NCBI GenBank assembly: GCA_012841145.1
Contig: DUVH01000009.1
Coordinates: 25,296 to 89,295, forward strand
DNA: 64,000 nucleotides
Direction: 5' to 3'
From: Clostridiaceae bacterium
GTDB taxonomy: Bacteria > Bacillota > Clostridia > Saccharofermentanales > DTU023
The position numbers and the translations under genes are program-made. This document shows, one piece after another, positions 15,209 to 36,049 of the stretch; the stretch's first letter is position 1, and each line of letters begins with the position of its first letter. A model generated the notes under the pieces. That model worked only from the letters and a program-made list of their open reading frames with translations. It did not search any database and was not told the DNA's origin.

Positions 15209-17470
15209 GTGTCGTCAATGATGCACCTCATCAATACAATCTTCGGTATCCCTCTCGGTTACCTTATGTATGCCTGCTATCGATTGACAGGTAATTACGG
15301 ACTTTCCATCATCCTTTTCACGTTTATAACGAAAGTAATTATGTTCCCGCTTTCGCTCATCTCACAGAAGAATTCAATCGTCATGGTACGAATACGCCCG
15401 CAGCTCGAGGAAATCAGACAGCGTTACGCCGGCAACAGTACAGAGATGGCATCTAAGCAAAAGGAACTCTACCGTCGCGAGAAGTACAGCGCCTGGAAGG
15501 GGATGCTGCCGCTTCTTGTACAGATCCCGATCATTCTCGGTCTGATTAATGTCATCTACAACCCGCTCCAACACCTGTTGCGCCTTGAACCTTCCGTGAT
15601 CAATTCGCTGCTTGAGAGGACGGCGACATTTTCCGGAACGACGGTTGCCGGACTTGGAACGAGCGCGGAGCTGACCGTTCTCGAAACGGTACAAGAGAAT
15701 ATCGCCTTCTTTGGCGGATTACCCGGTGTAAACGAGATCGCTTCAATGAATCTCAAATTTCTCGGTCTAAACCTTGCGGAAGTACCGACGATCAACTCGC
15801 TCAGCATTCTATACCCTGTTTTCTCCGGATTGAGCGCTTTCGTCTTGGCGATGTACCAGAATAAGCATAACGTGCTCCAGCGAGCGCAAGGAGTCGTCAG
15901 TCGCAGGGTTATGACGGTCATTCTCGTCGCATTTTCAGCCTTTTTTGCCGCTATCTTGCCGTGCGGCGTCGGCTTGTACTGGATCGCGGGAAATCTCCTG
16001 TCGATACCTGTTCTCCTTCTTTGCAATATCATTTATGATCCCGGTGAATACGCCGAGGAGATTGAACATCTGGTAGCGCCGAAACTCAGCAAGGAAGAGA
16101 AACTTGAGCAAAGGGCGCTTAATAAAGAGAAACGCAGGAGACAGCGAGCCGATGTTAAACGTTTTAACTCGACAAAGGATAAACGTCTCGTTTTCTATTC
16201 GGAGAGCGACGGATTCTATAAGTATTTTGAAGGGTACATCAACTACATTCTCGAGCATTCCGATGTCGTCATCCACTATGTCACGAGCGATGTGCGAGAC
16301 CGCGTGCTCTCGATGAACAAAGCACGCATTCAGGCGTATTATGTCGGGCCGATTGCCTTGATCCGCGTGATGATGTTGATGGATGCTGATATCGTTGTCA
16401 TGACGATGCCCGACCTTGAGAAATACCACATCAAGCGTTCGCTCGTAAGGAAAGATATTGAATATATCTATACCGATCACGGAATGACGAGCCTCCACCT
16501 GATGCTTCAGGAGAACGCGCTCGACTATTTCGATACGATTTTCTGCTACGGCCCGAACCACATCCGGGAAGTGCGCGAGATGGAGCGCGTCTATAACCTT
16601 CCTGCTAAGACGCTTGTCAAAACGGGATTTCCCTTGCTAGATTCGATGATTGAAGGCGCAGAGGCGATCGGTGACGTAATCAACGACCCGAAAATCATCC
16701 TGATCGCACCATCTTGGCAACAGGACAACATTCTCGAGTACTGCTTGGAGGAGACGTTGCGCCCGCTTTTAGGAGCCGGCTATCGCATCGTTGTTCGGCC
16801 CCACCCGGAATTCATCAAGCGATTCCCGGGTAAAATGAGAAAGATCATCGAGCGTTATAAAGATGATGTGGGAGACGATTTTGAAATTCAGACTTCGTTC
16901 GCTTCAAGCGAAACGGTCTATTCTGCCGACCTCGTGATCACCGACTGGTCGTCTATCGCGAATGAATTCTCGTATGCGAGGAAGAAGCCATCTCTTTTTA
17001 TCAATACGCCGATGAAGGTCGTCAATCCGAATTACAAGAAAATTCCTCTTGTCCCGCTTGATATTTCATTGCGTGATGAGATCGGTATCTCAATCGATGT
17101 CGAAGACCTTGATACAATCCTCGACGTCGTTCATACGCTTTTTGATAATGCCGATGAATACAGAGGGCGTATTGCCGACGTCGTCAGTCAAAATATATTT
17201 GATGTTGGCGACGGTGCGCGCGGCGGAGGTCAATACATCATCGATGCCCTTAAGAGGCGTATGGATGAGACTGTCGAACCGTCCTGCGATGACCTCGTAA
17301 CGCGTTGGCGGAGTATACTAAATAGCGGTATCGACGATGAGATAAAACAGATGCTCAACGAACCGCTCCCGGTCGATAATTCCGGTAATAGAACGAAAGC
17401 GGACTTTTTGCAGGAGATTTTGGAAGAGCTCGAAAGTACGATGGAACAGGAGATGAAAGATGAATCGTAA
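15209..17470 (+). CDS. Fusion protein: YidC/Oxa1-type membrane insertase domain + CDP-glycerol glycerophosphotransferase (TagB/TagF-like) domain
   Basis: aa 1-~280 match the YidC core pattern (GLSIILFTFITKVIMFPLSL...QLEEIRQRY...LPLLVQIPIILGL). aa ~330-753 carry TagF-family motifs (IAPSWQQD, VRPHPEF, LVITDWSSIANEF). It is one ORF with no stop. The start may be ATG 15218. Confidence 0.8.
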   Translation: MSSMMHLINTIFGIPLGYLMYACYRLTGNYGLSIILFTFITKVIMFPLSLISQKNSIVMVRIRPQLEEIRQRYAGNSTEMASKQKELYRREKYSAWKGMLPLLVQIPIILGLINVIYNPLQHLLRLEPSVINSLLERTATFSGTTVAGLGTSAELTVLETVQENIAFFGGLPGVNEIASMNLKFLGLNLAEVPTINSLSILYPVFSGLSAFVLAMYQNKHNVLQRAQGVVSRRVMTVILVAFSAFFAAILPCGVGLYWIAGNLLSIPVLLLCNIIYDPGEYAEEIEHLVAPKLSKEEKLEQRALNKEKRRRQRADVKRFNSTKDKRLVFYSESDGFYKYFEGYINYILEHSDVVIHYVTSDVRDRVLSMNKARIQAYYVGPIALIRVMMLMDADIVVMTMPDLEKYHIKRSLVRKDIEYIYTDHGMTSLHLMLQENALDYFDTIFCYGPNHIREVREMERVYNLPAKTLVKTGFPLLDSMIEGAEAIGDVINDPKIILIAPSWQQDNILEYCLEETLRPLLGAGYRIVVRPHPEFIKRFPGKMRKIIERYKDDVGDDFEIQTSFASSETVYSADLVITDWSSIANEFSYARKKPSLFINTPMKVVNPNYKKIPLVPLDISLRDEIGISIDVEDLDTILDVVHTLFDNADEYRGRIADVVSQNIFDVGDGARGGGQYIIDALKRRMDETVEPSCDDLVTRWRSILNSGIDDEIKQMLNEPLPVDNSGNRTKADFLQEILEELESTMEQEMKDES

Positions 17471-19424
17471 GGTAAAGACAATTCTCTTTACGTTCCTGTT
17501 GGCAGGCCTCAGCTTTTCCGTTCCGGTTCATGCCTACATTGACCCCGCGACTACAACGTATATCATCCAAATTGTTACGGCTCTCGTCATTACCTTGGGC
17601 GTCACGATCGGCGTGTTCTTTACACGTGTCAGACTTTCGATTGTCGGACTTTATGTCCGTATTTCGGAGTTTTTTATCAGGCTTTTCTCCAAGAAGAAAG
17701 GCAATAGTGTCACGACATCGCGTACGCACCTCAGGATGTCGCCTCCGGCAGGGGATAAACAGTCGTTCCGCAGCCGACTTTTGAGCTCGGTTTGCGTCAG
17801 CGTCGCCTTTGCTTTCACATTTATCGTGTTCGGCATATACGAACTCTATATGCTGAATGTCGACTATTTCAATTTCCCGCTCAAGTTGCTGCTTCCGCCC
17901 CTTTTGCTCTTCGGTGCGCTCGTCGCCGTTATTTTGTGCGGCTTCCTCATCTTGTTTCGAGGAGCACTATTCAGCACGCTCATCTCTTTTGTTTTCGGAA
18001 TCGTGTTGGCGGGGTACGTGCAGGGCAATTTTCTCAACAGGGATCTCGGAACATTGACTGGCGACCCGATCGACTGGAGTGCGAAAACCGGCGCCTTTTT
18101 CGTCAATACGCTCGTGTGGATCGCCTTATTGGCGATTCCATTTTTGTTGAAAGCTGCCGGAAAGAAGATCCATACCGTAACGATCAGGGCGGTATCGACA
18201 CTTTTGGTGATAGTACAGCTCGTATCGATGATTGCGCTTCAATTCTCGCCGACGTCTACACCTCAGCGATCTAACAGGTATCTGTCAACAAAGGCAATCA
18301 ACGAAGTAGCTCAAGAGGATAACATCATCGTGATCGTTCTGGATCGCCTCGACAACCGCTACATCGATCGTGTGAGAAATGACGATCCGCGATTTTTTGA
18401 TCGGCTTGACGGTTTCACGCAGTTTACGAACAATATTTCACTTTATTCACAGACATTCCCTTCTGTCGCCAATATGTTTACAGGAGAACTTCACATGTTC
18501 GAGCGTCCGATGAATGATTATCTGAAGGACGCCTGGTCGACATCGACGTTCCTTCCCGGACTTCGTAAACAACAATATGATATTTACCTCTATATGGAAC
18601 CGGGGTATACGTATAGGGACGTGGCGGACTTAGAACATGTGGCCGACAATATCATTGAGAACGAGATACGCATTCATTCCAAAGAAGCCTTAGTGCAATT
18701 CGGACGCTTATCGGCTTTCCGGTACGCTCCGCTATTAGCCAAACCTTTTTTCTGGACATCGACTGATCAGTTCAGCCGACTGATTTCGACGGATTCGACA
18801 GAAGGATATCCGCCGTATTTTGCAGACGATATTCAGTTTTACCGGCAGCTAAAAAGCGAAAAACTTCATGTGAGTGAGCATGGCAAGAGGTTGACCTATA
18901 TCCACATGCAGGGTCCGCATATGCCTTACGTGATGAATGAAAAGGCCGAACCCGCTGAACCCGGTACTTCAAGCGCGATGGTTCAGACGAAAGGGAGTTT
19001 CCATATCGTCTTCGAATACCTCGATCAGCTGAAACAATTAGGACTCTACGAGAGCAGTACAATCATCATCACGGGTGACCATGGCGCGCGAAAGAATGAC
19101 AGATTGCCTCTCGACGAACCAATCGTCACTGCTCTGTTCATCAAACCCGCAGGGAAAGGGGGTACTCCCTTAGCGTTTAATGGTGCACCTGTCTCAGCGG
19201 ATCAATTCCGACCATTTATATACAGCGAAGCCGGCATTCCGCATGAGGGACTCGGGAAGACGTATTTCGAAGTTCCTGAGGATTCAAGCGATGTTAGATA
19301 TCTTTACCATCGCCTTATAAAAACTGACGAGTCTCCAGCAAGGCTCCTTATATACAAAATCCGCGGAGATGCCAACGATTTTAAGAACTGGGTGCTTGTT
19401 GAGGATCGGGTGGACAACAACTAA
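17460..19424 (+). CDS. Polytopic membrane protein with extracellular sulfatase/alkaline-phosphatase-fold domain (LtaS / phosphoglycerol-transferase-like)
   Basis: About 6 TM segments, then IIVIVLDRLDNRY (metal/nucleophile region) and IIITGDHGAR motifs typical of the LtaS/sulfatase superfamily. 11-nt overlap with the upstream gene. Confidence 0.7.
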   Translation: MNRKVKTILFTFLLAGLSFSVPVHAYIDPATTTYIIQIVTALVITLGVTIGVFFTRVRLSIVGLYVRISEFFIRLFSKKKGNSVTTSRTHLRMSPPAGDKQSFRSRLLSSVCVSVAFAFTFIVFGIYELYMLNVDYFNFPLKLLLPPLLLFGALVAVILCGFLILFRGALFSTLISFVFGIVLAGYVQGNFLNRDLGTLTGDPIDWSAKTGAFFVNTLVWIALLAIPFLLKAAGKKIHTVTIRAVSTLLVIVQLVSMIALQFSPTSTPQRSNRYLSTKAINEVAQEDNIIVIVLDRLDNRYIDRVRNDDPRFFDRLDGFTQFTNNISLYSQTFPSVANMFTGELHMFERPMNDYLKDAWSTSTFLPGLRKQQYDIYLYMEPGYTYRDVADLEHVADNIIENEIRIHSKEALVQFGRLSAFRYAPLLAKPFFWTSTDQFSRLISTDSTEGYPPYFADDIQFYRQLKSEKLHVSEHGKRLTYIHMQGPHMPYVMNEKAEPAEPGTSSAMVQTKGSFHIVFEYLDQLKQLGLYESSTIIITGDHGARKNDRLPLDEPIVTALFIKPAGKGGTPLAFNGAPVSADQFRPFIYSEAGIPHEGLGKTYFEVPEDSSDVRYLYHRLIKTDESPARLLIYKIRGDANDFKNWVLVEDRVDNN

Positions 19425-19840
19425 CGTAACGATAATGTAACGAGTGAAAGTCTGAAAAATAATAGGTTCTCTTTGAACATATAATCATTTTCTGGTAAGA
19501 TTTAATAAATATAATTATATTTCAAGTGTCAACGATAGGTAGGAAAGTAGCGAGCCCCGTCGTCGATACTTCCGCAATTTTTGTGTGTTGACGTGAGCAG
19601 TAGTTCCGAGATTATTGGGGAGGGTGTGCATGAGGACATATCTTAAAAAAAATGCAGTGTTGTTGGTCGCATTCATCGCGTTATCGCTGACCTTCGCATC
19701 GCCAATTCTGGCAGCTGAAGGAGATGTAGAGATTAACGAGACAAATTTCCCTGATGATGCCTTCAGAGAATTTGTAACTCAGTACGATACGAGTGGAGAC
19801 GGCACTTTGCAAGTCACTGAGCTCGAAGCCGTGACGGAGA
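19413..19840 (+). repeat. Duplicated segment, copy A (217-nt leader + first ~210 nt of LRR gene 1)
   Basis: Aligns by eye with 22014..22440. The leaders have equal length (217 nt), roughly two-thirds identity, and a perfectly shared 14-mer CCGTCGTCGATACT (19557-19570 / 22159-22172). The 5' coding part is ~90% identical. Confidence 0.75.
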
Positions 19841-21816
19841 TAGATTTATATAGTTACAACATAGTCGATCTTACAGGTATTAAACACTTTACAAAAATAG
19901 CGGATCTTAAGGTTGATTGTGGAAATTTAGTTTCGCTCGATCTCTCAGGTTGTACAAGCTTGGCGGATCTTAATGTTGATTGTAAAAATTTGGTTTCGCT
20001 CGATGTCTCGGCTTGTACAAGCTTGGAGAATCTTAGTTACTTTGGTTATGTTTTGGAAACATTGGACGTGACCGGCTGTACGAACCTTAAGAAGCTTTAT
20101 TGTGAAGGTTCGGACTGCTTCATAGAGCCGCTCGATTTATCCTCCTGTACGAATCTGACTGATCTTACTATTATGATGTTTAGTAGTTTGACTTCATTGA
20201 ACGTAACAGGATGTACAAATCTCGAGACACTTTTTTGTGGATTTTCATCACTTGAATCACTTAATTTATCGGGTATGACGAAGCTTAAGAAATTAGGTAT
20301 CTCTTTTAACCATGTGGAGTCGCTCGATCTATCGGCATGCAAGGATCTTATCTATCTCAGCATCTGGCGTTGCAATCTAAGTGAATTGGATTTATCGGAA
20401 TTAGATAAGTTGCAAAAGCTCGATTGTTCAGATAATCGTCTTACCTCTTTAGATGTCTCGGGATGTACTGACCTTTGGCAGCTTACCGCGGGAGAACAAT
20501 GGATTGACGATGTATCTGCTGTTCTAAGAGGCGAGCATTACGAGGCTGATCTCGGTGCGTTATATGGTGTCGATATCGACAACATCAAGGAAGTGACACT
20601 TGATGACGGCGATCCGCTTCCCGACGGTTTTTCTTACGATCCTGTGACTGGTATCCTGAAGATGGACGCCGATCCTGGATATACGGCTTTCAAATATGTC
20701 TATGATACTAATGCGAATCTAGATAAGTTGGATGTTCCTCCTCCCGGATTCGCCGAATACGATGAGGAAGCCGAATTCGATGAGGAAGAGGAAGAGGGTT
20801 GGAGCGTTGTCGATTCGTCTCCCGACTTGGAAGTAAGGTTTACTATCAACATCGTCGAGGAGTCTCCAGAAGCGCCCGTAGTGTTAGAGACGGAAGATGA
20901 CAACGTCGAGATTGGAGAAGACGGTGTCGTTATTTTTCAGCAACGAGAGCAGTCCGAGGATGATACTGCTGAGGACGTGATAGAGGGCGGCATTTCATTA
21001 ATGATAGAGGGTAATGTAGACGATTTTCGGTATGTTACGTTAAACGGACGACAAGTGGCACGCCAACATTACGATGTAAAGGAAGGCAGCATTATTGTTA
21101 CGCTCAAAGACGCTTTTCTGAGTAGCCTGCCGCCGGGTGAGTATGTAGTAAAGCTGTTTACGAAGGCGTTTGTCAGCAGCCAAAATATATTGCTTGTCGC
21201 GCCTGAACCTGAGCCCGAACCTGAGCCGGATCCCGCACCAGAACCTGAACCTGTACCGGAGGCAGATTCTGAACCTACACCTACACCTACGACACCCGTT
21301 ACGACCGCACCTGAACCTACGACCGCGCCCACGACGACTGATCCTTCACAGCAAGTGCTGGATGTTGAGATACCGGCGTCATTGAACGAAGGAAATGATA
21401 TTGATGCGTCAGGTGACAGTGTCGTGTTCCACCAAGGTACGTCTACTGGCGCTGCTTTCAAGGTGAATGGCGCGGATGTTGCTGACTTCAAGCGCGTAGA
21501 GGTAAATGGTCAGGAAATTGGTTCTGACAATTACACCGTGGAAGCGGGCAGTATCATCGTCAAATTGAAGCAGGCTTTTTTAAATAGTCTGCCGGAAGAT
21601 GTGTATAAGGTAGCAATAGTTACCTCTAAAGGTACCGGCGTTAAGAATCTTCTAATAAAGGCTCCAATGCCTACCACTGATGCGAAAAAGCCTGTAACGC
21701 CTACGACAGGTGAGGTAAGGTTTACTCAGTTCTGGTGGTTCGCTTTACTGCTTTTTGTAGCCGGTTCGGTGTTGCTGCTGAGCTCTATCTACCGTCGGAG
21801 AAGAGAGAGCCGTTAG
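19630..21816 (+). CDS. Cell-wall-anchored surface protein with ~10 leucine-rich repeats, two ~85-aa beta-rich modules and a Pro-rich linker
   Basis: Signal peptide (LTFASPILA/AEG). 21-23-aa repeats of the form L..L.C....L.SLDvSgCt.L. C-terminal sorting signal TPTTGE + hydrophobic helix + RRRRESR. ATG 19630 preferred (GGGGAGGG upstream). Confidence 0.85.
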   Translation: MRTYLKKNAVLLVAFIALSLTFASPILAAEGDVEINETNFPDDAFREFVTQYDTSGDGTLQVTELEAVTEIDLYSYNIVDLTGIKHFTKIADLKVDCGNLVSLDLSGCTSLADLNVDCKNLVSLDVSACTSLENLSYFGYVLETLDVTGCTNLKKLYCEGSDCFIEPLDLSSCTNLTDLTIMMFSSLTSLNVTGCTNLETLFCGFSSLESLNLSGMTKLKKLGISFNHVESLDLSACKDLIYLSIWRCNLSELDLSELDKLQKLDCSDNRLTSLDVSGCTDLWQLTAGEQWIDDVSAVLRGEHYEADLGALYGVDIDNIKEVTLDDGDPLPDGFSYDPVTGILKMDADPGYTAFKYVYDTNANLDKLDVPPPGFAEYDEEAEFDEEEEEGWSVVDSSPDLEVRFTINIVEESPEAPVVLETEDDNVEIGEDGVVIFQQREQSEDDTAEDVIEGGISLMIEGNVDDFRYVTLNGRQVARQHYDVKEGSIIVTLKDAFLSSLPPGEYVVKLFTKAFVSSQNILLVAPEPEPEPEPDPAPEPEPVPEADSEPTPTPTTPVTTAPEPTTAPTTTDPSQQVLDVEIPASLNEGNDIDASGDSVVFHQGTSTGAAFKVNGADVADFKRVEVNGQEIGSDNYTVEAGSIIVKLKQAFLNSLPEDVYKVAIVTSKGTGVKNLLIKAPMPTTDAKKPVTPTTGEVRFTQFWWFALLLFVAGSVLLLSSIYRRRRESR
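19900..20025 (+). repeat. Two tandem 63-nt units encoding adjacent LRRs
   Basis: 19900-19962 and 19963-20025 differ at 7 positions by my count (ADLKVDCGNLVSLDLSGCTSL / ADLNVDCKNLVSLDVSACTSL). Confidence 0.85.
20811..21223 (+). repeat. Near-identical block shared with paralog (copy A)
   Basis: About 400 nt aligning with 23310..23716, with about 20 substitutions and one 6-nt (gaacct) indel by eye. Confidence 0.85.
21201..21343 (+). repeat. Low-complexity Pro-Glu / Pro-Thr codon repeat (linker PEPEPEPEPDPAPEPEPVPE...TPTPTTPVTTAPEPTTAPTTT)
   Basis: Reiterated cctgaa/cctgag/cctaca units. The paralog has only PEPEPAPDSE at the same place. Confidence 0.8.
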
Positions 21817-21855
21817 TAGTAATAATTCAGGGAAATAGTTTTTTGCGAAAAATGG

Positions 21856-21898
21856 GGGTGTCTCAAACACTTTATTAAGTGATTGAGACACCCTTTTT
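21856..21898 (+). terminator. Rho-independent terminator after LRR gene 1
   Basis: 11-bp perfect stem GGGTGTCTCAA / TTGAGACACCC (21856-21866 / 21883-21893) followed by TTTTT. Confidence 0.8.
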
Positions 21899-22013
21899 CA
21901 TGTTGAAAGCCATGAAAACAGCCAGCATCAAAACGTAGCGGGTTCATGTAGGCGATAGCGGCCGAACTTTTCTGCTACTTGTATTCTCTTCAAATATTTG
22001 CCATTGCAACAAT

Positions 22014-22440
22014 GACGACAACTGACGTAACAATAATGTAACGACGGAAAGCCTTAAAAACAACAAGGATTCTTTGAATAAATAATCTGTGTCTGGTACC
22101 ATGTATCAAATGTATAAAGATTTCAATCGTCAATAATAGATATGAGAATGGCGAGATACCGTCGTCGATACTGCCAGTATTAGCAAACGGTGACATGAGC
22201 ATTAGTTTCGATGTAACAAGGAGGATTTGCATGAGGACAAATCTTAGTAAGATTGTTGTGTTGGTAGTAGCCTTCGCGTTATTGCTGACCTTCGCACCGC
22301 CAATTCTGGCAACTGAAGGAGATGTGGAGATTAACGAGACAAATTTCCCTGATGATGCCTTCAGGGAATTTGTAACTCAGTACTACGATACGAACGGAGA
22401 CGGTACTTTGCAAGTCGCTGAGCTCGAAGCCGTGACGGAA
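22014..22440 (+). repeat. Duplicated segment, copy B (217-nt leader + first ~210 nt of LRR gene 2)
   Basis: See copy A (19413..19840). Confidence 0.75.
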
Positions 22441-24318
22441 ATTGTGTTAGACGATGATTATGTGACTAACATAATAGGGATCAAGTACTTTACGAATTTG
22501 GCTAGTCTCACTTGTTTTTGTCGCGAATTAGAGGATCTGGATGTGACAGGCTGTGCGAATCTTGAGTCTTTGCTGATTGCCGATGCAGATTACATAGAGT
22601 CTCTCGATGTATCAAATTGTACGAACTTGCGCAAATTGATGTGTTTCATGTGTCTTGAACTGAATTCATTGAACGTATCGGGCTGTACAAAACTCGAGTC
22701 GCTTATTTGTGCCCATACCAGCGTAGAGGAACTTGATGTATCAAGTTTGACTAACTTGAAAAAGCTCATTTGCTCCTATAGCCCTGTTCGTTCACTTGAT
22801 TTATCTGCATGTCAAAAATTAGTCACCCTCAATGTTTATCGCGCCAGTCTTGACAATCTGGACTTGTCTGAACAAAAAGAGCTACAAAAACTTGATACTA
22901 GTATGAATTGTTTGGCAGTGTTGGATGTTTCCGGACTTCCTCTTCTTTGGCAGTTTACTGCCGGAGAACAGTACGGCGAGGAAGTTATTGCTGTCAGAAG
23001 AGGTGATCAGTATGTTGCTGATCTCAGCTCTTTGGAAGGCGTCGATATTGCAAGAATTAAGGATATAGAAGTCAGTTTCTATGATGAAGGACTTCTTCCG
23101 ACCGGTTATACGTATAACAAGACCACCGGTTTGTTGACGATAGATGTTGATCCGGGTCAATCGGAATTCGTCTATGTTTACGATACTAAAGCTAATCTCA
23201 AAAACTTAGATAAACCGCCTGCCGGATACGATCCTCCCGGATACGCCGAATACGATGAGGAAGAAGAATTCGATGAGGAAAAGGAAGAGGAAGAGGATTG
23301 GCGCTATCGCGATTCGTCTCCCGACTTGGAAGTAAGGTTTACTATCAACATCGTCGAGGAGTCTCTTGAAGCGCCCGTAGTTTTAGAGACGGAAGATGAC
23401 AACGTCGAGATTGGAGAAGACGGTGTCGTTATTTTTCAGCAACGAGAGCAGTCCGAGGATGAAACTGCTGAGGACGTGACAGAGGGCGGCATTTCATTAA
23501 AGATTGAGGGCAATGTAGACGATTTTCAGTATGTTACATTGAACGGACAACGAGTGGCACGCCAACATTACGACGTAAAGGAAGGCAGCATTATTGTCAC
23601 GCTCAAAGACGCTTTTCTGAGTAGCCTGCCGCCAGGAGAGTATGTAGTAAAGCTGTTTACGAAGGCGTTTGTCAACAGCCAAAATATCTTGCTTGTCGCG
23701 CCTGAGCCCGAACCTGCGCCGGATTCTGAAGTCGACAAGCAGTTACCTGATGTTACTGAGTCTGATTCAAAGCCGCTGATCATCGATATTCCTTCGGATT
23801 TGAATGAAGGCAATGACATCGTATTGGCTAACGATGGCGTTGTGGAATATTTCATCGGCAAATCGAACGGAATTACCTTTAAAGTATCGTTTGAGGGTTC
23901 CGATGCACTAAGTAAAAATGACTTCCGTTCTTTGACGGTAGATGGTGAAGAAATAGAACAAACACCTGATAATTACACTGTAGAAGACGGCAGCATCATA
24001 GTCAAACTGACTAAGAGATTTTTGGACAACCTTCCCAAGAAGGAACATTCCATCGGCATACACACAGAACAGGGATCTGTTGTTAAAATTATTAGGAGAA
24101 TAGAGGCTGATCCTGAAACGACGACATCTGATTCGCCCGATGAGGTCATAGTGACAATGCCGGACAAGATGGATCCGGAGTCTGCAGTGACGCCACCGGC
24201 GACGGGTGAGGTTAAGTATAACCACGTCTGGTGGGCAGCGCTGTTGTTGCTGTCTGTTGGCGCTGTGCTTCTCTTTACATCATCATCGATTCGACGCGAA
24301 GGTAAGCAGAGACGCTGA
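22231..24318 (+). CDS. Cell-wall-anchored LRR surface protein, paralog 2
   Basis: Same architecture as 19630..21816. Signal peptide (LTFAPPILA/TEG), LRRs, two beta-rich modules, sorting signal PPATGE + hydrophobic helix + RREGKQRR. ATG 22231 preferred (AGGAGG upstream). Confidence 0.85.
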   Translation: MRTNLSKIVVLVVAFALLLTFAPPILATEGDVEINETNFPDDAFREFVTQYYDTNGDGTLQVAELEAVTEIVLDDDYVTNIIGIKYFTNLASLTCFCRELEDLDVTGCANLESLLIADADYIESLDVSNCTNLRKLMCFMCLELNSLNVSGCTKLESLICAHTSVEELDVSSLTNLKKLICSYSPVRSLDLSACQKLVTLNVYRASLDNLDLSEQKELQKLDTSMNCLAVLDVSGLPLLWQFTAGEQYGEEVIAVRRGDQYVADLSSLEGVDIARIKDIEVSFYDEGLLPTGYTYNKTTGLLTIDVDPGQSEFVYVYDTKANLKNLDKPPAGYDPPGYAEYDEEEEFDEEKEEEEDWRYRDSSPDLEVRFTINIVEESLEAPVVLETEDDNVEIGEDGVVIFQQREQSEDETAEDVTEGGISLKIEGNVDDFQYVTLNGQRVARQHYDVKEGSIIVTLKDAFLSSLPPGEYVVKLFTKAFVNSQNILLVAPEPEPAPDSEVDKQLPDVTESDSKPLIIDIPSDLNEGNDIVLANDGVVEYFIGKSNGITFKVSFEGSDALSKNDFRSLTVDGEEIEQTPDNYTVEDGSIIVKLTKRFLDNLPKKEHSIGIHTEQGSVVKIIRRIEADPETTTSDSPDEVIVTMPDKMDPESAVTPPATGEVKYNHVWWAALLLLSVGAVLLFTSSSIRREGKQRR
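23310..23716 (+). repeat. Near-identical block shared with paralog (copy B)
   Basis: See 20811..21223. Confidence 0.85.
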
Positions 24319-24414
24319 GTCAGTTCGTTTCGTTGATTCAAAGGTTCGCTCATAAGCGGAGCAAAAACTGAGTCCAGTTATCCAGTGTTTCTACAGCAAA
24401 AATGATTGAAATAA

Positions 24415-24444
24415 CGTGGGCGCCTCATTGTTGAGACGCCCACG
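24415..24444. terminator. Bidirectional hairpin terminator between convergent LRR gene 2 and the peroxiredoxin gene
   Basis: 8-bp GC-rich stem CGTGGGCG / CGCCCACG (24415-24422 / 24437-24444) with T-rich sequence on both sides. Confidence 0.6.
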
Positions 24445-24474
24445 CTTCTTGTTAGGTAAAGGCTGTTTTATGCT

Positions 24475-25176
24475 TTACTCATCTTTCTTGAATGTCAAGT
24501 ACCAGTCGAGCTGTGTATACTCGTCCTTACCTTTGACTTCCTCGACACGCTCTTTGATAGCTTTCGTTGTGACCGGTGGCGGCACGATGACGTCTTTGCC
24601 TGGATGCCAGTTGGCGGGGAGAGCGACACCCTCGGCATCTGACTTCTGTAAGCCGATGACGATGCGTTTGATCTCATTGAAATTCCTGCCTAGAGATGAC
24701 GGATAGTAAAGGATTGTTCTCATGACACCTTCCGGATCGACGAAGAAGACTGCGCGCACGGCAGCCGTATCGGATTCACCCTGGAGCATACCGTATTTAT
24801 TGGCCACTTCCATCTTTACGTCGTCAATGACGGGGAACTTGACATCCGGGTTCTCGATGCCGTTCCACGAATAGTTCTTAATTGCCGTTACCCAGCCCAA
24901 GTGGGCGTGGACGGAGTCGATCGAGAGTCCGACGAGTTCCGTGTTGAGCGATTTGAACTCTTCGTGCATTGACGCGAAGGTCATAAACTCGGTCGTACAA
25001 ACGGGGGTAAAGTCCGCCGGGTGGGAGAAGAGGATAACCCACTTTCCTTTGTAGTCATCCGGGAAATTTATCACGCCGTGCGTCGTATTTGCGGTGAATT
25101 TCGGAGCGGGTAGTCCGATCAGCGGAAATGAATTCTTCGGTTCAACCTGAACATTTTTATCACAATTGTTTTCCAT
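24475..25176 (-). CDS. Peroxiredoxin, Prx6-like 1-Cys type (AhpC/TSA family)
   Basis: FSHPADFTPVCTTEF peroxidatic-Cys motif with the surrounding Prx6-type pattern. Start set at the second ATG (25176) because GGAGGG lies just upstream and overlaps the tracked first ATG. Confidence 0.85.
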   Translation of the reverse strand: MENNCDKNVQVEPKNSFPLIGLPAPKFTANTTHGVINFPDDYKGKWVILFSHPADFTPVCTTEFMTFASMHEEFKSLNTELVGLSIDSVHAHLGWVTAIKNYSWNGIENPDVKFPVIDDVKMEVANKYGMLQGESDTAAVRAVFFVDPEGVMRTILYYPSSLGRNFNEIKRIVIGLQKSDAEGVALPANWHPGKDVIVPPPVTTKAIKERVEEVKGKDEYTQLDWYLTFKKDE

Positions 25177-25321
25177 AATACCCTCCATAGAATAAAAGTT
25201 TTGGATAATTGAATTTGCTAAATTAGCTTACAAAGTAATTTTAGTATAGGCATCAATTTTTTGCTGTAAGACTGGTTACATCCGTATTTTGCGATATACC
25301 GAGCATGCCGGTGCATTAACA

Positions 25322-34103: not shown

Positions 34104-35827
34104 GACGACTTGAAATCATATCCTCTTTGTTTAAGCACCTTCATTCTTTTCGTTGGTACATGGTGCTTAATGTTGTGATTTGTTTTTTATATGAGCTTAT
34201 GCCCATGGCCTCTCTCTTTCTGGTTTCCTATGTCATAGGGGCTATTATTAGAGGAGTGTCCTTGAATTATCAAGGTTTTTTGTTTGTTTTGATTCTCCTT
34301 ACATTCCTACAGGCGTGCTTTGGCTATATAAATATGTGGACGGAACACGATATCGCCTATCGGATTTTGTATAAACTGCGTCAAGACATCTATGATCGAT
34401 TAGAAAAAGCTCTGCCTATCTTTGGTAAGGGGATGAGCTCTGCAGAGATTGTATCCATTGTGTCTAATGACATGAATATCTTAGAGTGGTTTTATGCTCA
34501 TACCATCAACATCTTTATCGTCACCGTGGTTATCGCTCTTTTGATTCTTTCCTTTTACTTTTATCTTCATCCGGTACTTGCCCTAAACGCTTTGCTATGG
34601 ATTGTGGGGTATCTCCTTAGTGCTGTGATTTTTAAAAAGAAATCTGAAGAAGATGGACGTGAATTGCGTAAAAATTATGGAATTCTTGCTCGCTTAGGAG
34701 TAGATTTAGTCCAAGGGCTTAAAGACTTACTGACCTTTCAAGCGTGGCACAGATACTTGCAAAGATTTGGTATTGCCGTAGATAACTATGATGAAGCCAA
34801 GAAAAAAGATGCTCTAAGAAGATCCCGAGAATATATGTATACTTTGTGTATCGTGGCACTGATGACTCTATGCACACTCCTCATATCCAATCATTTAACT
34901 ATAAGTAATGCGTTTAGTTTTGCGTGGCTGCCTACACTGATTAGTCTCAATGCTTGTATTGTGATGTTATTGAATAAATTTATGAGTATGTCATCTCAAT
35001 TCTCATCTATTTTTGCTGCAAGTGAACGGGTTCTCAATCTCCTTAATGTCCCTATATCTGTAGAAGATAAGGGTAGCTTGGTATTTGAAGGTTCTATTGA
35101 AACTGTTGTTTTTGAAGATGTCTCTTTTACTTATCCGGGCACATCTATCCCACAAATCAAAGGACTCAACTTTAGCTTAAGAAAGGGTGAGCAGGTTTCC
35201 CTGGTAGGAGAGTCCGGCTCAGGGAAAACAACAATTATAAGGCTTATACAACGTTATGCCGACCCTCAAAAAGGAAGAATTTTAGTAAATGGCAGAGATA
35301 TCAGAGAATATACGCTGGAGTCTTGGAGAAATGCGTTGTCTGTGGTCTCACAGCACACCTACTTGTTTAAAAGGAGCGTCGAGGACAACATCGAAATGGG
35401 ACGGCCGGGTGTATCAAAAGAGGAAATTCGGCAAGCTGCAAAGATTGCCCAAGCACACGAGTTTATTGAGGACTTTCCTGGGGGGTATGCCACTGAAGTT
35501 GGAGAACGGGCATTAAAGATTTCCGGCGGACAAAGGCAACGACTCTCCATTGCCCGCGCCATCTTAAAGGACAGTTCCTTTATTATCTTTGATGAAGCTC
35601 AGTCCTCTTTAGATTCTGCCAATGAAGAGCGCTTAATAATAGCGATGGATGATTTTTTGGAAAACAGGGTTTTCCTCTCAATCGCACACCGCTTATCTTC
35701 TATCCAAAATAGCCATCGTATCCTATTTATGGATGAGGGCTGTCTTGTTGCCAGTGGCACCTTTGAGGAATTGTCAGAACTGCATCCTCTATTTAAAGAA
35801 AAGATTTTGGGGGAAGGGCAAGGCTAG
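34100..35827 (+). CDS. ABC exporter, fused permease/ATPase subunit (CydC/MdlB-like partner)
   Basis: Six-TM domain, Walker A GESGSGKTT, signature ISGGQRQRLSIARA, Walker B IIFDEAQSSLD. 4-nt overlap with the upstream subunit. Confidence 0.85.
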   Translation: MRRLEIISSLFKHLHSFRWYMVLNVVICFLYELMPMASLFLVSYVIGAIIRGVSLNYQGFLFVLILLTFLQACFGYINMWTEHDIAYRILYKLRQDIYDRLEKALPIFGKGMSSAEIVSIVSNDMNILEWFYAHTINIFIVTVVIALLILSFYFYLHPVLALNALLWIVGYLLSAVIFKKKSEEDGRELRKNYGILARLGVDLVQGLKDLLTFQAWHRYLQRFGIAVDNYDEAKKKDALRRSREYMYTLCIVALMTLCTLLISNHLTISNAFSFAWLPTLISLNACIVMLLNKFMSMSSQFSSIFAASERVLNLLNVPISVEDKGSLVFEGSIETVVFEDVSFTYPGTSIPQIKGLNFSLRKGEQVSLVGESGSGKTTIIRLIQRYADPQKGRILVNGRDIREYTLESWRNALSVVSQHTYLFKRSVEDNIEMGRPGVSKEEIRQAAKIAQAHEFIEDFPGGYATEVGERALKISGGQRQRLSIARAILKDSSFIIFDEAQSSLDSANEERLIIAMDDFLENRVFLSIAHRLSSIQNSHRILFMDEGCLVASGTFEELSELHPLFKEKILGEGQG

Positions 35828-36049
35828 TGCCCTAGGTGTTTTTAGTATTTCTCTCAAGAATATATTTGTTGCAGTTTCGCAGGAACAAGAGAACCAAAGT
35901 TGCGAACATTACTTGACAGTACTCTTTTCTTCTTGCAATTATACTATATACAAATAAAGAATAAAAGCATTTGCCTGTCGAGCTTGATCATATTTATCAG
36001 CTATATTTATCAGTATATCTTTTGGAACTCAAATGAAATAAAATCTAAT

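What the first reader, a model, noticed from the sequence alone, without database searches (positions are those of the whole stretch)
19413..24318. Tandem LRR wall-protein paralogs with a mosaic of near-identical and diverged segments
The two genes share the same architecture, but their nucleotide identity is strongly patchy:
- The leader, signal peptide and first ~70 codons are ~90% identical.
- The ~950-nt LRR region (about 19850-20800 vs 22450-23300) is clearly diverged, with different repeat sequences.
- A central ~400-nt block (20811-21223 vs 23310-23716) has only about 20 substitutions by my count.
- The second beta-rich module and the stalk are again diverged.

This pattern fits ongoing gene conversion or recombination between paralogs. 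Alternatively it fits diversifying selection focused on the ligand-binding LRR surface, i.e. a small antigenic or adhesive variation family.
Basis: seen in the sequence. Interest (0 to 1): 0.55.

Follow-up and report, generated by a model that had tools for sequence, protein, structure and literature searches.

The report
Recombination-mosaic tandem internalin-like surface genes
Two neighbouring genes for leucine-rich-repeat cell-surface proteins in an uncultured Clostridia-type bacterium are patchworks made by DNA exchange, both between the two copies and between related species; this is a clear but ordinary example of how bacterial surface adhesin families evolve.

Summary
Gene A (19630-21816) and gene B (22231-24318) form a ~2.6-kb tandem unit with three identity tiers. 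The leader and the start of the signal peptide are 70.5% identical. Two islands, A 19676-19838 and A 20811-21206, are 93% and 95% identical. The LRR/Ig-like region and the 3' part are 50-60% identical.

Selection on the protein does not explain the islands. Four-fold degenerate sites differ at 10/85 inside the islands and at 67/102 outside (p=2e-14).

Relatives settle the cause. The same slot (sulfatase-like gene, then the LRR gene, then peroxiredoxin) is empty in the closest relative. In one sister species (flanks ~98% identical) it holds either a single A-like or a single B-like gene. Four-taxon informative sites group the LRR/Ig-like segments by allele type (80:3 and 42:4). They group both islands by genome (27:1 and 29:2; chi-square p=6e-30).

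The islands are therefore recombination tracts, most likely gene conversion between the tandem copies. Island 2 matches one Ig-like module to within 1-3 residues. The B-type LRR is much closer to the sister species' allele (pS 0.23) than the genomes are to each other (pS ~0.7), which implies cross-species cassette exchange.

There is no sign of diversifying selection (omega 0.2-0.43). "Ongoing" conversion is unproven. This is a new member of a known kind, with Listeria inlC2/inlD/inlH as the closest analogue.

The parts
19413..19629 (+). Leader of gene A. The left edge of the tandem unit overlaps the last ~12 nt and the stop codon of the upstream sulfatase-like gene (17460-19424).
   Evidence: It aligns with 22014-22230 at 71% identity. 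The same leader is conserved upstream of the A1 and B1 genes in the sister species at 59-65%. There is no Rfam match.
19630..21816 (+). Gene A, 728 aa, an internalin-like LRR surface protein. It has a signal peptide (residues 1-28), N-cap plus Cys-ladder LRR (29-285), an Ig-like domain (286-365), an acidic linker, Ig-like module 1 (397-525), a Pro-rich linker, module 2 (575-680), and a PTTGE motif with TM helix and RRRR tail.
   Evidence: ORF and RBS. Pfam LRR_4 53.8 bits and LRR_EndoS 44.8 bits, both above cut-off. AlphaFold2 model with pLDDT 77.7. Foldseek top hits are InlJ 3bz5, InlA and InlB. Motif coordinates.
19676..19838 (+). Identity island 1 in gene A (residues 16-70: the end of the signal peptide plus the N-cap).
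   Evidence: 92.8% identical to B 22274-22439. The upstream flank is 70.5% and the downstream flank 50.6% (Fisher p=7e-7 against leader). Informative sites: 27 by genome, 1 by type.
19839..20739 (+). A-type variable cassette: the LRR repeats plus the Ig-like inter-repeat-type domain.
   Evidence: 59% nt identity to B with pS 0.72. It groups with sister-species allele A1 (S2b 80% nt), with informative sites 80:3 and 42:4 by type. GC3 is 0.39, against 0.56-0.59 in the flanking genes.
19890..20015 (+). Internal 63-nt tandem duplication (two 21-residue LRR units), part of the 126-nt stretch that B lacks.
   Evidence: the repeat finder family D4, 83% identity. The indel is visible.
20811..21206 (+). 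Identity island 2 in gene A (residues 394-526, which is Ig-like module 1). A softer shoulder starts at ~20740 in the acidic linker.
   Evidence: 95.2% identical to B 23310-23705, dS 0.13. All other pairs among the four genes are 53-64%. Informative sites 29:2 by genome. The borders match AF2 module 1 (397-525).
21207..21813 (+). Diverged 3' part of gene A: the Pro-rich stalk, Ig-like module 2, and the PTTGE sorting-type motif (21700-21714) with TM helix and basic tail.
   Evidence: 53% nt identity to B, with synonymous sites saturated (pS 0.87). Pfam Shr-like_HID 24.6 bits, partial match. Disordered linkers and a TM helix in the model.
21847..21899 (+). GC-rich hairpin followed by a T-run after gene A (a probable intrinsic terminator). 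It is followed by a unique spacer, 21900-22013.
   Evidence: Inverted self-match and the sequence. The consensus scan did not list it because the loop exceeds 8 nt. Function is inferred. The spacer has no homolog downstream of B or in the relatives.
22014..22230 (+). Leader of gene B. It begins with a diverged remnant of the 3' end of the sulfatase-like gene (GACGACAACTGA, against GGACAACAACTAA).
   Evidence: Alignments. This shows that unit B was copied from a slot with the same synteny.
22231..24318 (+). Gene B, 695 aa. It has the same architecture as gene A with two fewer LRRs, and a PATGE motif at 24196-24210.
   Evidence: LRR_EndoS 29.1 bits, above the 27.9 cut-off.
22274..22439 (+). Identity island 1 in gene B.
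22440..23232 (+). B-type variable cassette (LRR plus Ig-like domain).
   Evidence: The LRR part is 86.5% nt identical (pS 0.23) to allele B1 of the sister species. Flanking genes between the two species have pS 0.69-0.76.
23310..23705 (+). Identity island 2 in gene B (Ig-like module 1). The shoulder starts at ~23233.
   Evidence: All apparent strain variants fall inside it.
23706..24315 (+). Diverged 3' part of gene B: the linker, module 2, and the sorting-type signal.
   Evidence: No close homolog was found elsewhere.
24415..24444 (.). Hairpin between the convergent gene B and the peroxiredoxin gene (24475-25188, minus strand); a probable bidirectional terminator and the right edge of the slot.
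   Evidence: Sequence. A hairpin sits in the equivalent position in L007, L008 and the empty-slot locus L020. Function is inferred.

Best explanation
The locus is a variable cell-envelope slot. It lies between a sulfatase/LtaS-like gene and a convergent peroxiredoxin gene, next to choline-kinase, nucleotidyltransferase and TagF-like teichoic-acid-type genes. The slot carries internalin-like surface protein genes with this architecture: signal peptide, N-cap, cysteine-ladder LRR, Ig-like domain, one or two Ig-like stalk modules, and an xPxTGE sorting-type signal.

Two old allele lineages exist, A-type and B-type. In the window organism both sit in tandem. The second unit was copied from a slot with the same synteny, because it carries its own leader and a remnant of the upstream gene's 3' end.

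Homologous recombination acting on whole modules made the mosaic in three ways.
1. Non-reciprocal exchange (gene conversion) between the tandem copies homogenised two module-sized tracts: the N-cap region (island 1) and Ig-like module 1 (island 2). This happened after the duplication or capture that produced the 71%-identical leaders. Island 2 is bounded by the low-complexity acidic and Pro-rich linkers.
2. The LRR plus Ig-like 'cassettes' stayed as distinct allele lineages. These are swapped between genomes with breakpoints in the conserved 5' end and just past the stop codon. The B-type LRR crossed between two species long after they diverged.
3. The number of LRR units changes by 63-nt tandem duplication.

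Shown: the identity pattern, the synonymous-site contrast, the segment-wise incongruence, the four slot states, and the low B-B1 divergence against the genomic background. Inferred: the direction and order of events, non-reciprocity, wall anchoring, and adhesin function.
For: - Synonymous sites: islands dS 0.13-0.27, against saturation elsewhere. Four-fold sites differ at 10/85 vs 67/102, p=1.7e-14. Max-chi-square 93 against a null maximum of 23.5.
- Three identity tiers: leader 70.5%, islands 93-95%, cassettes 50-60%. The leader is constrained (60-65% between species whose synonymous sites are saturated), yet it is only 71% identical between A and B. The islands are therefore younger than the duplication.
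- Slot states: empty in L020, a single A-like gene in L007/L014/L019, a single B-like gene in L008, and A+B here.
- L007 and L008 share 97.6-98.8% identical flanks. Their genes are unalignable by blastn from roughly codon 41-72 to ~40 nt past the stop.
- Four-taxon informative sites (by genome: by type): S1 27:1, LRR 3:80, Ig-like 4:42, S3 29:2, chi-square p=6e-30.
- Inside island 2, the shared A=B sequence matches A1 25:2 in the 5' part and B1 25:9 further 3', including the indel pattern. This fits exchange in both directions.
- B-B1 LRR pS is 0.23, against a background of 0.69-0.76 in three flanking genes.
- Island 2 covers residues 394-526, and AF2 module 1 covers 397-525, flanked by disordered linkers.
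- Internalin-type fold: Foldseek top hits are InlJ, InlA and InlB, and NCBIfam internalin_J gives E=2e-28.
- No sequence outside this genome carries island 2 at more than ~64% identity.
Against: - Only four allele sequences are available. Neither the order of events nor the direction of exchange can be rooted.
- The chimeric look of island 2 could be ancestral, with A1 and B1 being the recombinants.
- Non-reciprocity, the defining feature of conversion, cannot be tested.
- The apparent conversion tracts among strains are confined to SPAdes contigs. The L005/L006 tract is flanked by identical runs of 56 and 80 nt, which is at or above k=55, so it may be an artefact.
- The background divergence comes from three genes only.
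- The surface/adhesin function and sortase anchoring are inferred from motifs and fold. No sortase gene was seen among the ten neighbouring ORFs scanned with Pfam, spanning 13149-35827.
Confidence: 0.7

Rival explanations
1. Recent whole-gene tandem duplication followed by segment import. The islands are untouched remnants of a young duplicate pair. The LRR/Ig-like cassette and the 3' part of one copy were later replaced by foreign alleles through homologous recombination anchored in the conserved modules.
For: - It also predicts low dS in the islands and cassettes that group by type.
- The B-type LRR has clearly moved between species.
- In the sister species, allelic replacement breaks at the same 5' position.
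- The cassettes have GC3 of 0.39, against ~0.5 in the islands.
Against: - The leader and the first ~15 codons are only 70.5% identical with indels. The leader is constrained between species, so a duplicate as young as the islands (dS 0.13-0.19) should have a leader that is at least ~85% identical.
- It needs two separate imports (S2 and S4) that both spare the 396-nt module between them.
- No donor for either S4 was found.
Confidence: 0.2
2. Diversifying (positive) selection on the ligand-binding LRR surface drove rapid divergence of the LRR region after duplication. The rest of the gene stayed similar.
For: LRR surface proteins are classic targets of such selection (general knowledge). omega for B-B1 LRR is 0.43, higher than the pN/pS of ~0.04-0.15 seen in flanking genes within the sister species.
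Against: - Synonymous sites in the diverged segments are saturated. Selection on the protein cannot cause that.
- dN/dS is well below 1 everywhere: 0.18 for A-B S2, and 0.27 / 0.20 / 0.33 for concave, core and convex positions.
- Concave positions are not enriched for replacements (p=0.36).
- The B LRR is closer to an allele in another species than to A.
Confidence: 0.05
3. The pattern involves no recombination. The islands simply reflect stronger purifying selection on the N-cap and module 1, or the pattern is an assembly artefact (collapsed or chimeric repeats).
For: The islands coincide with folded modules. Metagenome assemblers do mis-handle near-identical repeats, and the SPAdes contigs L004-L006 differ exactly at paralog-specific sites.
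Against: - Third-position and four-fold identity is ~0.9 in the islands and 0.3-0.4 outside.
- The same modules are only 53-64% identical in all other allele pairs, so constraint alone does not keep them at 95%.
- The window, a MEGAHIT k141 contig and two JGI contigs agree base for base across both genes. They keep the 19-29 paralog-specific differences in island 2 and a diverged remnant of the upstream gene at the junction.
Confidence: 0.03

Closest known systems
[quoted passage not shown]
   Same: - Both are tandem genes for LRR surface proteins with a signal peptide, N-cap, LRR, Ig-like inter-repeat domain, C-terminal repeats or modules, and a sorting signal.
- Recombination between neighbouring paralogs at domain borders creates chimeric genes (PMC3977354).
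- The nearest structures to the model are InlJ, InlA and InlB.
   Different: - Here the exchange left two internal module-sized homogenised tracts in two intact genes, rather than a deletion-fusion of two genes into one.
- The proteins are not Listeria internalin orthologs (internalin_J 99 bits against a cut-off of 1700).
- The stalk modules are different Ig-like/Shr-HID-like modules rather than B-repeats.
- The host is an uncultured Clostridia-type bacterium known only from metagenomes.
- The sorting motif is xPxTGE.
InlJ (Listeria class 1 internalin with cysteine-ladder LRRs; PDB 3bz5)
   Same: It has 21-22-residue repeats with Cys at the position usually held by Asn (LDxSxCxxL). It is the best Foldseek hit (E=1.6e-12) and the best NCBIfam hit (E=2e-28).
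   Different: Sequence identity is ~19%, and TM-scores are low (0.26/0.41) because only the N-terminal half aligns. The score is far below the family cut-off. InlJ has MucBP repeats, not these modules.
Allelic (cassette) replacement at a fixed chromosomal slot flanked by conserved genes, as in mosaic surface-protein or capsule loci of Gram-positive bacteria (general knowledge, not tested here)
   Same: Divergent alleles occupy one syntenic slot in genomes that are ~98% identical (L007 vs L008). The breakpoints lie in the conserved 5' end and just downstream of the gene. The slot can also be empty.
   Different: Here two alleles also coexist in tandem and then exchange internal modules. No mobile-element genes or recombinases were seen among the ten neighbouring ORFs scanned with Pfam.
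Pfam LRR_EndoS (PF23952) / LRR_4-containing surface proteins of Clostridia and Bacteroidota
   Same: Both proteins pass the LRR_EndoS gathering score. Hundreds to thousands of database proteins share this N-cap plus LRR module joined to varied C-terminal domains.
   Different: Only five clusters (P0002-P0006) share the region after the LRR. The two-module stalk is so far unique to this organism.

Membership tests
Gene conversion / concerted evolution between tandem paralogs (process) | Identity islands persist at synonymous and four-fold degenerate sites, so they are not only at the protein level. | tested here: met
   Four-fold sites differ at 10/85 in the islands and 67/102 elsewhere, p=1.7e-14. 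dS is 0.13-0.27 in the islands and saturated elsewhere.
Gene conversion / concerted evolution between tandem paralogs (process) | Phylogenetic incongruence: converted tracts group paralogs of one genome, and unconverted tracts group orthologous or allelic types across genomes. | tested here: met
   Informative sites (by genome: by type): S1 27:1, LRR 3:80, Ig-like 4:42, S3 29:2; chi-square p=6e-30.
Gene conversion / concerted evolution between tandem paralogs (process) | The tracts are younger than the duplication itself. | tested here: met
   The leader plus the first 15 codons are 70.5% identical, and the adjacent island 1 is 92.8% (Fisher p=7e-7). Island 2 is 95.2%. The reading relies on the leader evolving no faster than synonymous sites, which its 60-65% conservation between species supports.
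Gene conversion / concerted evolution between tandem paralogs (process) | Non-reciprocal transfer, with conversion tracts still segregating among strains ('ongoing'). | tested here: inconclusive
   All 18 in-gene variants in contigs L004-L006 equal the other paralog's base. They occur only in SPAdes assemblies (one at 3.7x coverage). The L005/L006 tract is flanked by identical runs of 56 and 80 nt, so bubble collapse cannot be excluded.
Listeria class 1 internalins (NCBIfam internalin_J / A / K / H exception models) | The whole-protein score reaches the curated cut-off. | tested here: not met
   internalin_J 99.2 bits against a cut-off of 1700 for A, and 51.1 bits for B. The other models score lower. 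The proteins work like internalins but are not members of these families.
Internalin-type architecture (N-cap + LRR + fused Ig-like inter-repeat domain) | A contiguous N-cap, LRR solenoid and C-terminal Ig-like domain. | tested here: met
   The AF2 model has pLDDT ~90 over residues 30-365, with a helical cap (43-67), regular beta-strands every ~21 residues and a beta domain at 286-365. Foldseek top hits are the functional domains of InlJ, InlA and InlB, prob 1.00. The TM-scores are modest.
Sortase-anchored (LPXTG-type) cell-wall proteins | A C-terminal sorting signal: an LPXTG-like motif, a hydrophobic helix and a positively charged tail. | tested here: inconclusive
   The motifs are TPTTGE (A), PPATGE (B), IPATGE (A1), LPATGE (B1) and APATGE (P0006), each followed by a predicted helix and an R/K tail. 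No NCBIfam LPXTG-anchor model reached its threshold. No sortase gene was found among the ten neighbouring ORFs scanned.
Pfam LRR_EndoS (PF23952) | Gathering score of 27.9 bits. | tested here: met
   A 44.8 bits and B 29.1 bits.
Pfam Shr-like_HID (PF07550, formerly DUF1533) for the stalk modules | Gathering score of 22.3 bits with coverage of the 82-position model. | tested here: inconclusive
   In A, module 2 scores 24.6 bits in the whole protein but covers only model positions 28-54. It scores 19.0 bits on its own. B scores 16.4-16.6 bits, and module 1 has no hit. The fold is a generic Ig-like sandwich (low-confidence model).
Diversity-generating retroelement or invertase-driven programmed variation | A nearby reverse transcriptase or recombinase, with adenine-specific template/variable repeat differences. 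| tested here: not met
   None of the ten neighbouring ORFs scanned with Pfam (spanning 13149-35827) is an RT or recombinase. The differences in island 2 involve all base types.

The most novel reading that the evidence does not exclude
The slot may work as a cassette-exchange site. On this reading, the conserved leader/N-cap and the downstream terminator act as portable homology arms, which let internalin-like LRR cassettes be swapped between strains and even between species whose genomes are ~75% identical. The tandem A+B state would be a working intermediate, in which module-by-module conversion, delimited by low-complexity linker DNA, is still producing new chimeric adhesins in present-day populations. 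In that case the SPAdes 'variants' would be real segregating conversion tracts.
Probability: 0.3. Interest if true: 0.5.

Novelty: new member of a known kind. Interest (0 to 1): 0.35.

Why it matters
This is a clean, quantified example from an uncultured anaerobe of how Gram-positive LRR adhesin genes are built and rebuilt from whole structural modules. One slot shows four states (empty, A, B, A+B). It also shows intragenomic homogenisation of one Ig-like module and lateral movement of an LRR cassette between species.

The case is useful for annotation, because the paralogs should not be merged or treated as simple duplicates. It is useful for strain-resolved metagenomics, because the locus is a natural marker and also a trap for assemblers. 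It adds to the comparative study of internalin-like proteins outside Listeria.

It does not reveal a new mechanism or open a long-standing question.

Tried and rejected
- **Known RNA in the leader:** an Rfam scan of 19300-24600 at E<=1 found nothing.
- **Promoters and terminators:** the consensus scan found no more sites than shuffled sequence, and it missed the long-loop hairpins.
- **Programmed variation (DGR or invertase):** rejected. None of the ten neighbouring ORFs scanned with Pfam is an RT or recombinase, and the substitutions are not A-specific.
- **Apparent reciprocal swap of the P/L codon:** cluster representatives P0001 and P0002 seemed to show a swap. It turned out to be two different contigs, each with both copies in the same state. 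These are either one-way conversions or bubble collapse, and this could not be resolved.
- **Second homolog search, with protein B:** it found no further alleles and no donor for B's 3' part.
- **More syntenic loci:** scans of the genome and metagenome collections with the upstream gene gave only three new ones, L014, L019 and L020. A many-allele GENECONV/RDP analysis was therefore not possible, and four-taxon site counts were used instead.
- **Module 1 modelled alone:** the model had low confidence (pLDDT 59) and gave only generic Ig-like matches. A profile search of PDB sequences hit only the C-terminal region of an 'IgA protease' chain. No specific function could be assigned.
- **Pfam on the isolated Ig-like domain and module 1:** no hits.

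Full report
**1. What is there**

The window holds two same-strand ORFs, 19615-21816 and 22195-24318. The conserved GGAGG-N7-ATGAGGACA context puts the likely starts at 19630 (gene A, 728 aa) and 22231 (gene B, 695 aa). This matches the gene calls on other contigs.

Nucleotide homology between the two units begins at 19413 <-> 22014. That point lies inside the last ~12 nt of the upstream sulfatase-like gene (17460-19424). Unit B therefore carries its own ~205-nt leader plus a diverged remnant of that gene's 3' end. Gene A is followed by its own hairpin and T-run (21847-21899), then a unique spacer. Gene B ends next to the hairpin it shares with the convergent peroxiredoxin gene.

**2. Check of the observation**

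Change-point segmentation gives these segments:
- A 19413-19675 / B 22014-22273: 70.5% identical
- A 19676-19838 / B 22274-22439: 92.8% (island 1)
- A 19839-20810 / B 22440-23309: 51-61%, with a 126-nt indel of two LRRs that includes a 63-nt tandem duplication at 19890-20015
- A 20811-21206 / B 23310-23705: 95.2% (island 2)
- the rest to the stop codons: ~48-51%

The one numerical correction is that the non-coding leader is 71% identical, not ~90%.

The heterogeneity is not chance. Max-chi-square is 93, against a permutation maximum of 23.5. The longest identical run is 80 nt, against 40.

It is also not protein-level constraint. Four-fold degenerate sites differ at 10/85 in the islands and at 67/102 outside (p=1.7e-14). 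dS is 0.13-0.27 in the islands and saturated elsewhere.

The window sequence is identical over both genes to one MEGAHIT contig and two JGI contigs. The structure is therefore not an assembly product.

**3. The proteins**

*Sequence family matches*
- Pfam finds LRR_4 and LRR_EndoS above threshold.
- NCBIfam's best hit is internalin J (E=2e-28), but it scores far below the family cut-off.

*Structure model.* An AlphaFold2 model (mean pLDDT 77.7) gives:
- a signal helix
- a helical N-cap plus ~21-residue Cys-containing LRRs (residues 29-285)
- a beta domain fused to the LRR (286-365)
- a disordered acidic linker (376-390)
- beta-sandwich module 1 (397-525)
- a disordered Pro-rich linker (529-574)
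- module 2 (575-680)
- a C-terminal TM helix

*Fold and module identity*
- The best Foldseek matches are the functional domains of InlJ (3bz5, 'cysteine ladder'), InlA and InlB.
- Modules 1 and 2 are homologous to each other. They look like generic Ig-like sandwiches with a weak Shr-like_HID signal.

*Anchor.* All family members end in xPxTGE, a hydrophobic helix and a basic tail. This is a sortase-type signal by inspection. No LPXTG model reached its threshold, and no sortase gene was found among the ten neighbouring ORFs scanned.

Overall, these are internalin-like surface proteins by architecture. They are not members of the Listeria internalin families.

**4. Related loci**

The exact proteins occur only in near-identical contigs of the same organism. 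The nearest other homologs are P0003/P0004 (A-like, called A1 here), P0005 (B-like, called B1) and P0006.

The slot (choline kinase, YidC/TagF-like fusion, sulfatase-like gene, [LRR gene], peroxiredoxin) takes four states:
- **Empty** in L020, the closest relative (flank proteins 80-94% identical). Only 95 nt separate the sulfatase-like and peroxiredoxin genes.
- **A single A-like gene** in L007, L014 and L019. L014 is a MAG labelled Clostridiaceae bacterium.
- **A single B-like gene** in L008.
- **A and B in tandem** in the window organism.

L007 and L008 belong to one species, with flanks 97.6-98.8% identical and pS 0.03-0.07. Yet their LRR genes lose all blastn similarity from roughly codon 41-72 to ~40 nt past the stop codon. 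That is allelic cassette replacement, and its 5' breakpoint sits where island 1 ends in the window.

P0006 lies in an unrelated genomic context and lacks the leader.

**5. Test of the interpretation**

With A1 and B1 as references, pairwise identities by segment are as follows:
- LRR: B-B1 86.5% (pS 0.23), A-A1 63%, A-B 57%
- Ig-like domain: A-A1 80%, B-B1 78%, A-B 64%
- Module 1: A-B 95%, all other pairs 53-64%

Four-taxon parsimony-informative sites, counted as by genome: by type: other, are 27:1:1 (S1), 3:80:8 (LRR), 4:42:0 (Ig-like) and 29:2:3 (S3). The chi-square p-value is 6e-30. This is the classical signature of recombination or concerted evolution.

Inside island 2, the shared A=B sequence is A1-like at its 5' end (25:2). 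It is B1-like further 3' (25:9, with B1's indel pattern). This suggests that tracts moved in both directions. An ancestral chimera cannot be excluded with only four sequences.

The leader is constrained between species (60-65% identity where synonymous sites are saturated) yet only 71% identical between A and B. The 93-95% islands are therefore younger than the duplication or capture event. That favours later conversion over the idea that the islands are remnants of a young duplicate.

Island 2 (residues 394-526) coincides with module 1 (397-525). It is bounded by the low-complexity acidic and Pro-rich linkers. Exchange is therefore module by module.

**6. Cross-species exchange**

Three flanking genes give pS of 0.69-0.76 between the window organism and the L007/L008 species. 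The B-type LRR gives pS of 0.23 (dS 0.27) over 168 collinear codons. A polymorphism older than the species split would be at least as diverged as the genomes. The B-type LRR cassette must therefore have moved laterally after the lineages split.

Both cassettes have GC3 of 0.39, against 0.56-0.59 in the flanks and ~0.5 in the islands. This fits an accessory origin, although it is weaker evidence.

**7. Diversifying selection**

dN/dS is 0.18 for A-B in the diverged 5' block (with dS saturated). For the informative B-B1 LRR pair it is 0.43. By LRR position class it is 0.27 (concave), 0.20 (core) and 0.33 (convex or other). Replacements are not enriched on the concave face (7/40 vs 21/81, p=0.36).

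Constraint may be somewhat relaxed. There is no signal of positive selection, and positive selection could not explain saturated synonymous sites in any case.

**8. Is conversion ongoing?**

Three SPAdes contigs of the same organism differ from the window inside the genes at 18 positions. All lie in island 2, and every one equals the other paralog's base.
- In L005/L006, gene B has gene A's state at three sites.
- In L004, the two genes are identical over 20811-21134.

This is what segregating conversion tracts would look like. But L004 has only 3.7x coverage. The L005/L006 tract is the one marker cluster flanked by identical runs of at least 55 nt (56 and 80 nt), which is the condition for de Bruijn bubble collapse at k=55. 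The MEGAHIT k141 contig and the JGI contigs keep both states. I treat this as unresolved and lean towards artefact.

**9. Comparison with what is known, and verdict**

The closest analogue is the Listeria inlC2/inlD/inlH case. There, recombination between tandem internalin genes at a domain border made a chimeric gene (PMC3977354). More generally, mosaic evolution of LRR surface proteins is well known. The differences here are:
- two internal, module-sized homogenised tracts within two intact genes
- different stalk modules
- an xPxTGE signal
- an uncultured Clostridia-type host
- a slot that is documented as empty, single-allele or tandem, with cross-species cassette transfer

No new mechanism is implied. 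It is a new member of a known kind, of moderate to low interest.

Noticed in passing
window 15209-17470: A single 753-aa ORF fuses a YidC/Oxa1-type membrane insertase domain (60KD_IMP, residues 30-268) to a TagF-like CDP-glycerol glycerophosphotransferase domain (317-598). The fusion is conserved in L007, L008 and L020.
   Followed up: partly
window 25416-27164: A Ser/Thr protein kinase with a C-terminal LRR_4/LRR_8 domain. It is a bacterial 'LRR receptor kinase'-like protein immediately downstream of the slot, and it is 87% conserved in L020.
   Followed up: no
window 26000-36000 (ORFs 27342-30326, 30330-32153, 32361-35827): A low-GC stretch (0.40-0.42, against ~0.51 elsewhere). It holds a 994-aa ORF with no Pfam hit, a clostripain-family C11 peptidase and two ABC exporter genes.
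   Followed up: no
window 19425-19629 and 22026-22230; L007 7783-7986; L008 9797-10000: A ~205-nt leader upstream of the LRR genes is conserved across two species (59-65% identity where synonymous sites are saturated). Shared motifs are TTCTTTGAA, CTGGTACCAT and (T)CGATAC. There is no Rfam match, and the leader is absent upstream of the non-syntenic homolog P0006.
   Followed up: partly
window 19747-19770 and 22345-22368: A perfect 8-bp hairpin (TTC[T/C]CTGA...TCAGGGAA) lies inside island 1 of both genes. The scan flagged it as terminator-like on the minus strand. It encodes FPDDAFRE and may be coincidental.
   Followed up: no
L004 (ERZ2648292), L005 (ERZ773357), L006 (ERZ778607); window 20867-21099 and 23366-23552: SPAdes contigs of the same organism differ from the window within the genes only by switches to the other paralog's base (18 of 18 sites). 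This is either real conversion tracts or bubble collapse.
   Followed up: partly
L020 11966-12059: The closest relative has an empty slot. The first ~20 nt after the sulfatase-like stop codon still resemble the start of the leader (CGATAAGTAA vs CGATAATGTAA). This hints at deletion or at a fixed insertion point.
   Followed up: no
L021 1-7476: The more distant homolog P0006 sits beside a large DEAD/YjiV_N/MZB helicase gene and a 1211-aa ORF with no Pfam hit. This is a defence-island-like neighbourhood, not the teichoic-acid-type slot.
   Followed up: no
window 20800-21219, 21346-21690, 23299-23718, 23770-24150: A profile of the four stalk modules matches residues 984-1065 of PDB chain 9qa6_A ('IgA protease') at E=6e-7. 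The module type therefore also occurs in another Gram-positive-style surface enzyme.
   Followed up: no
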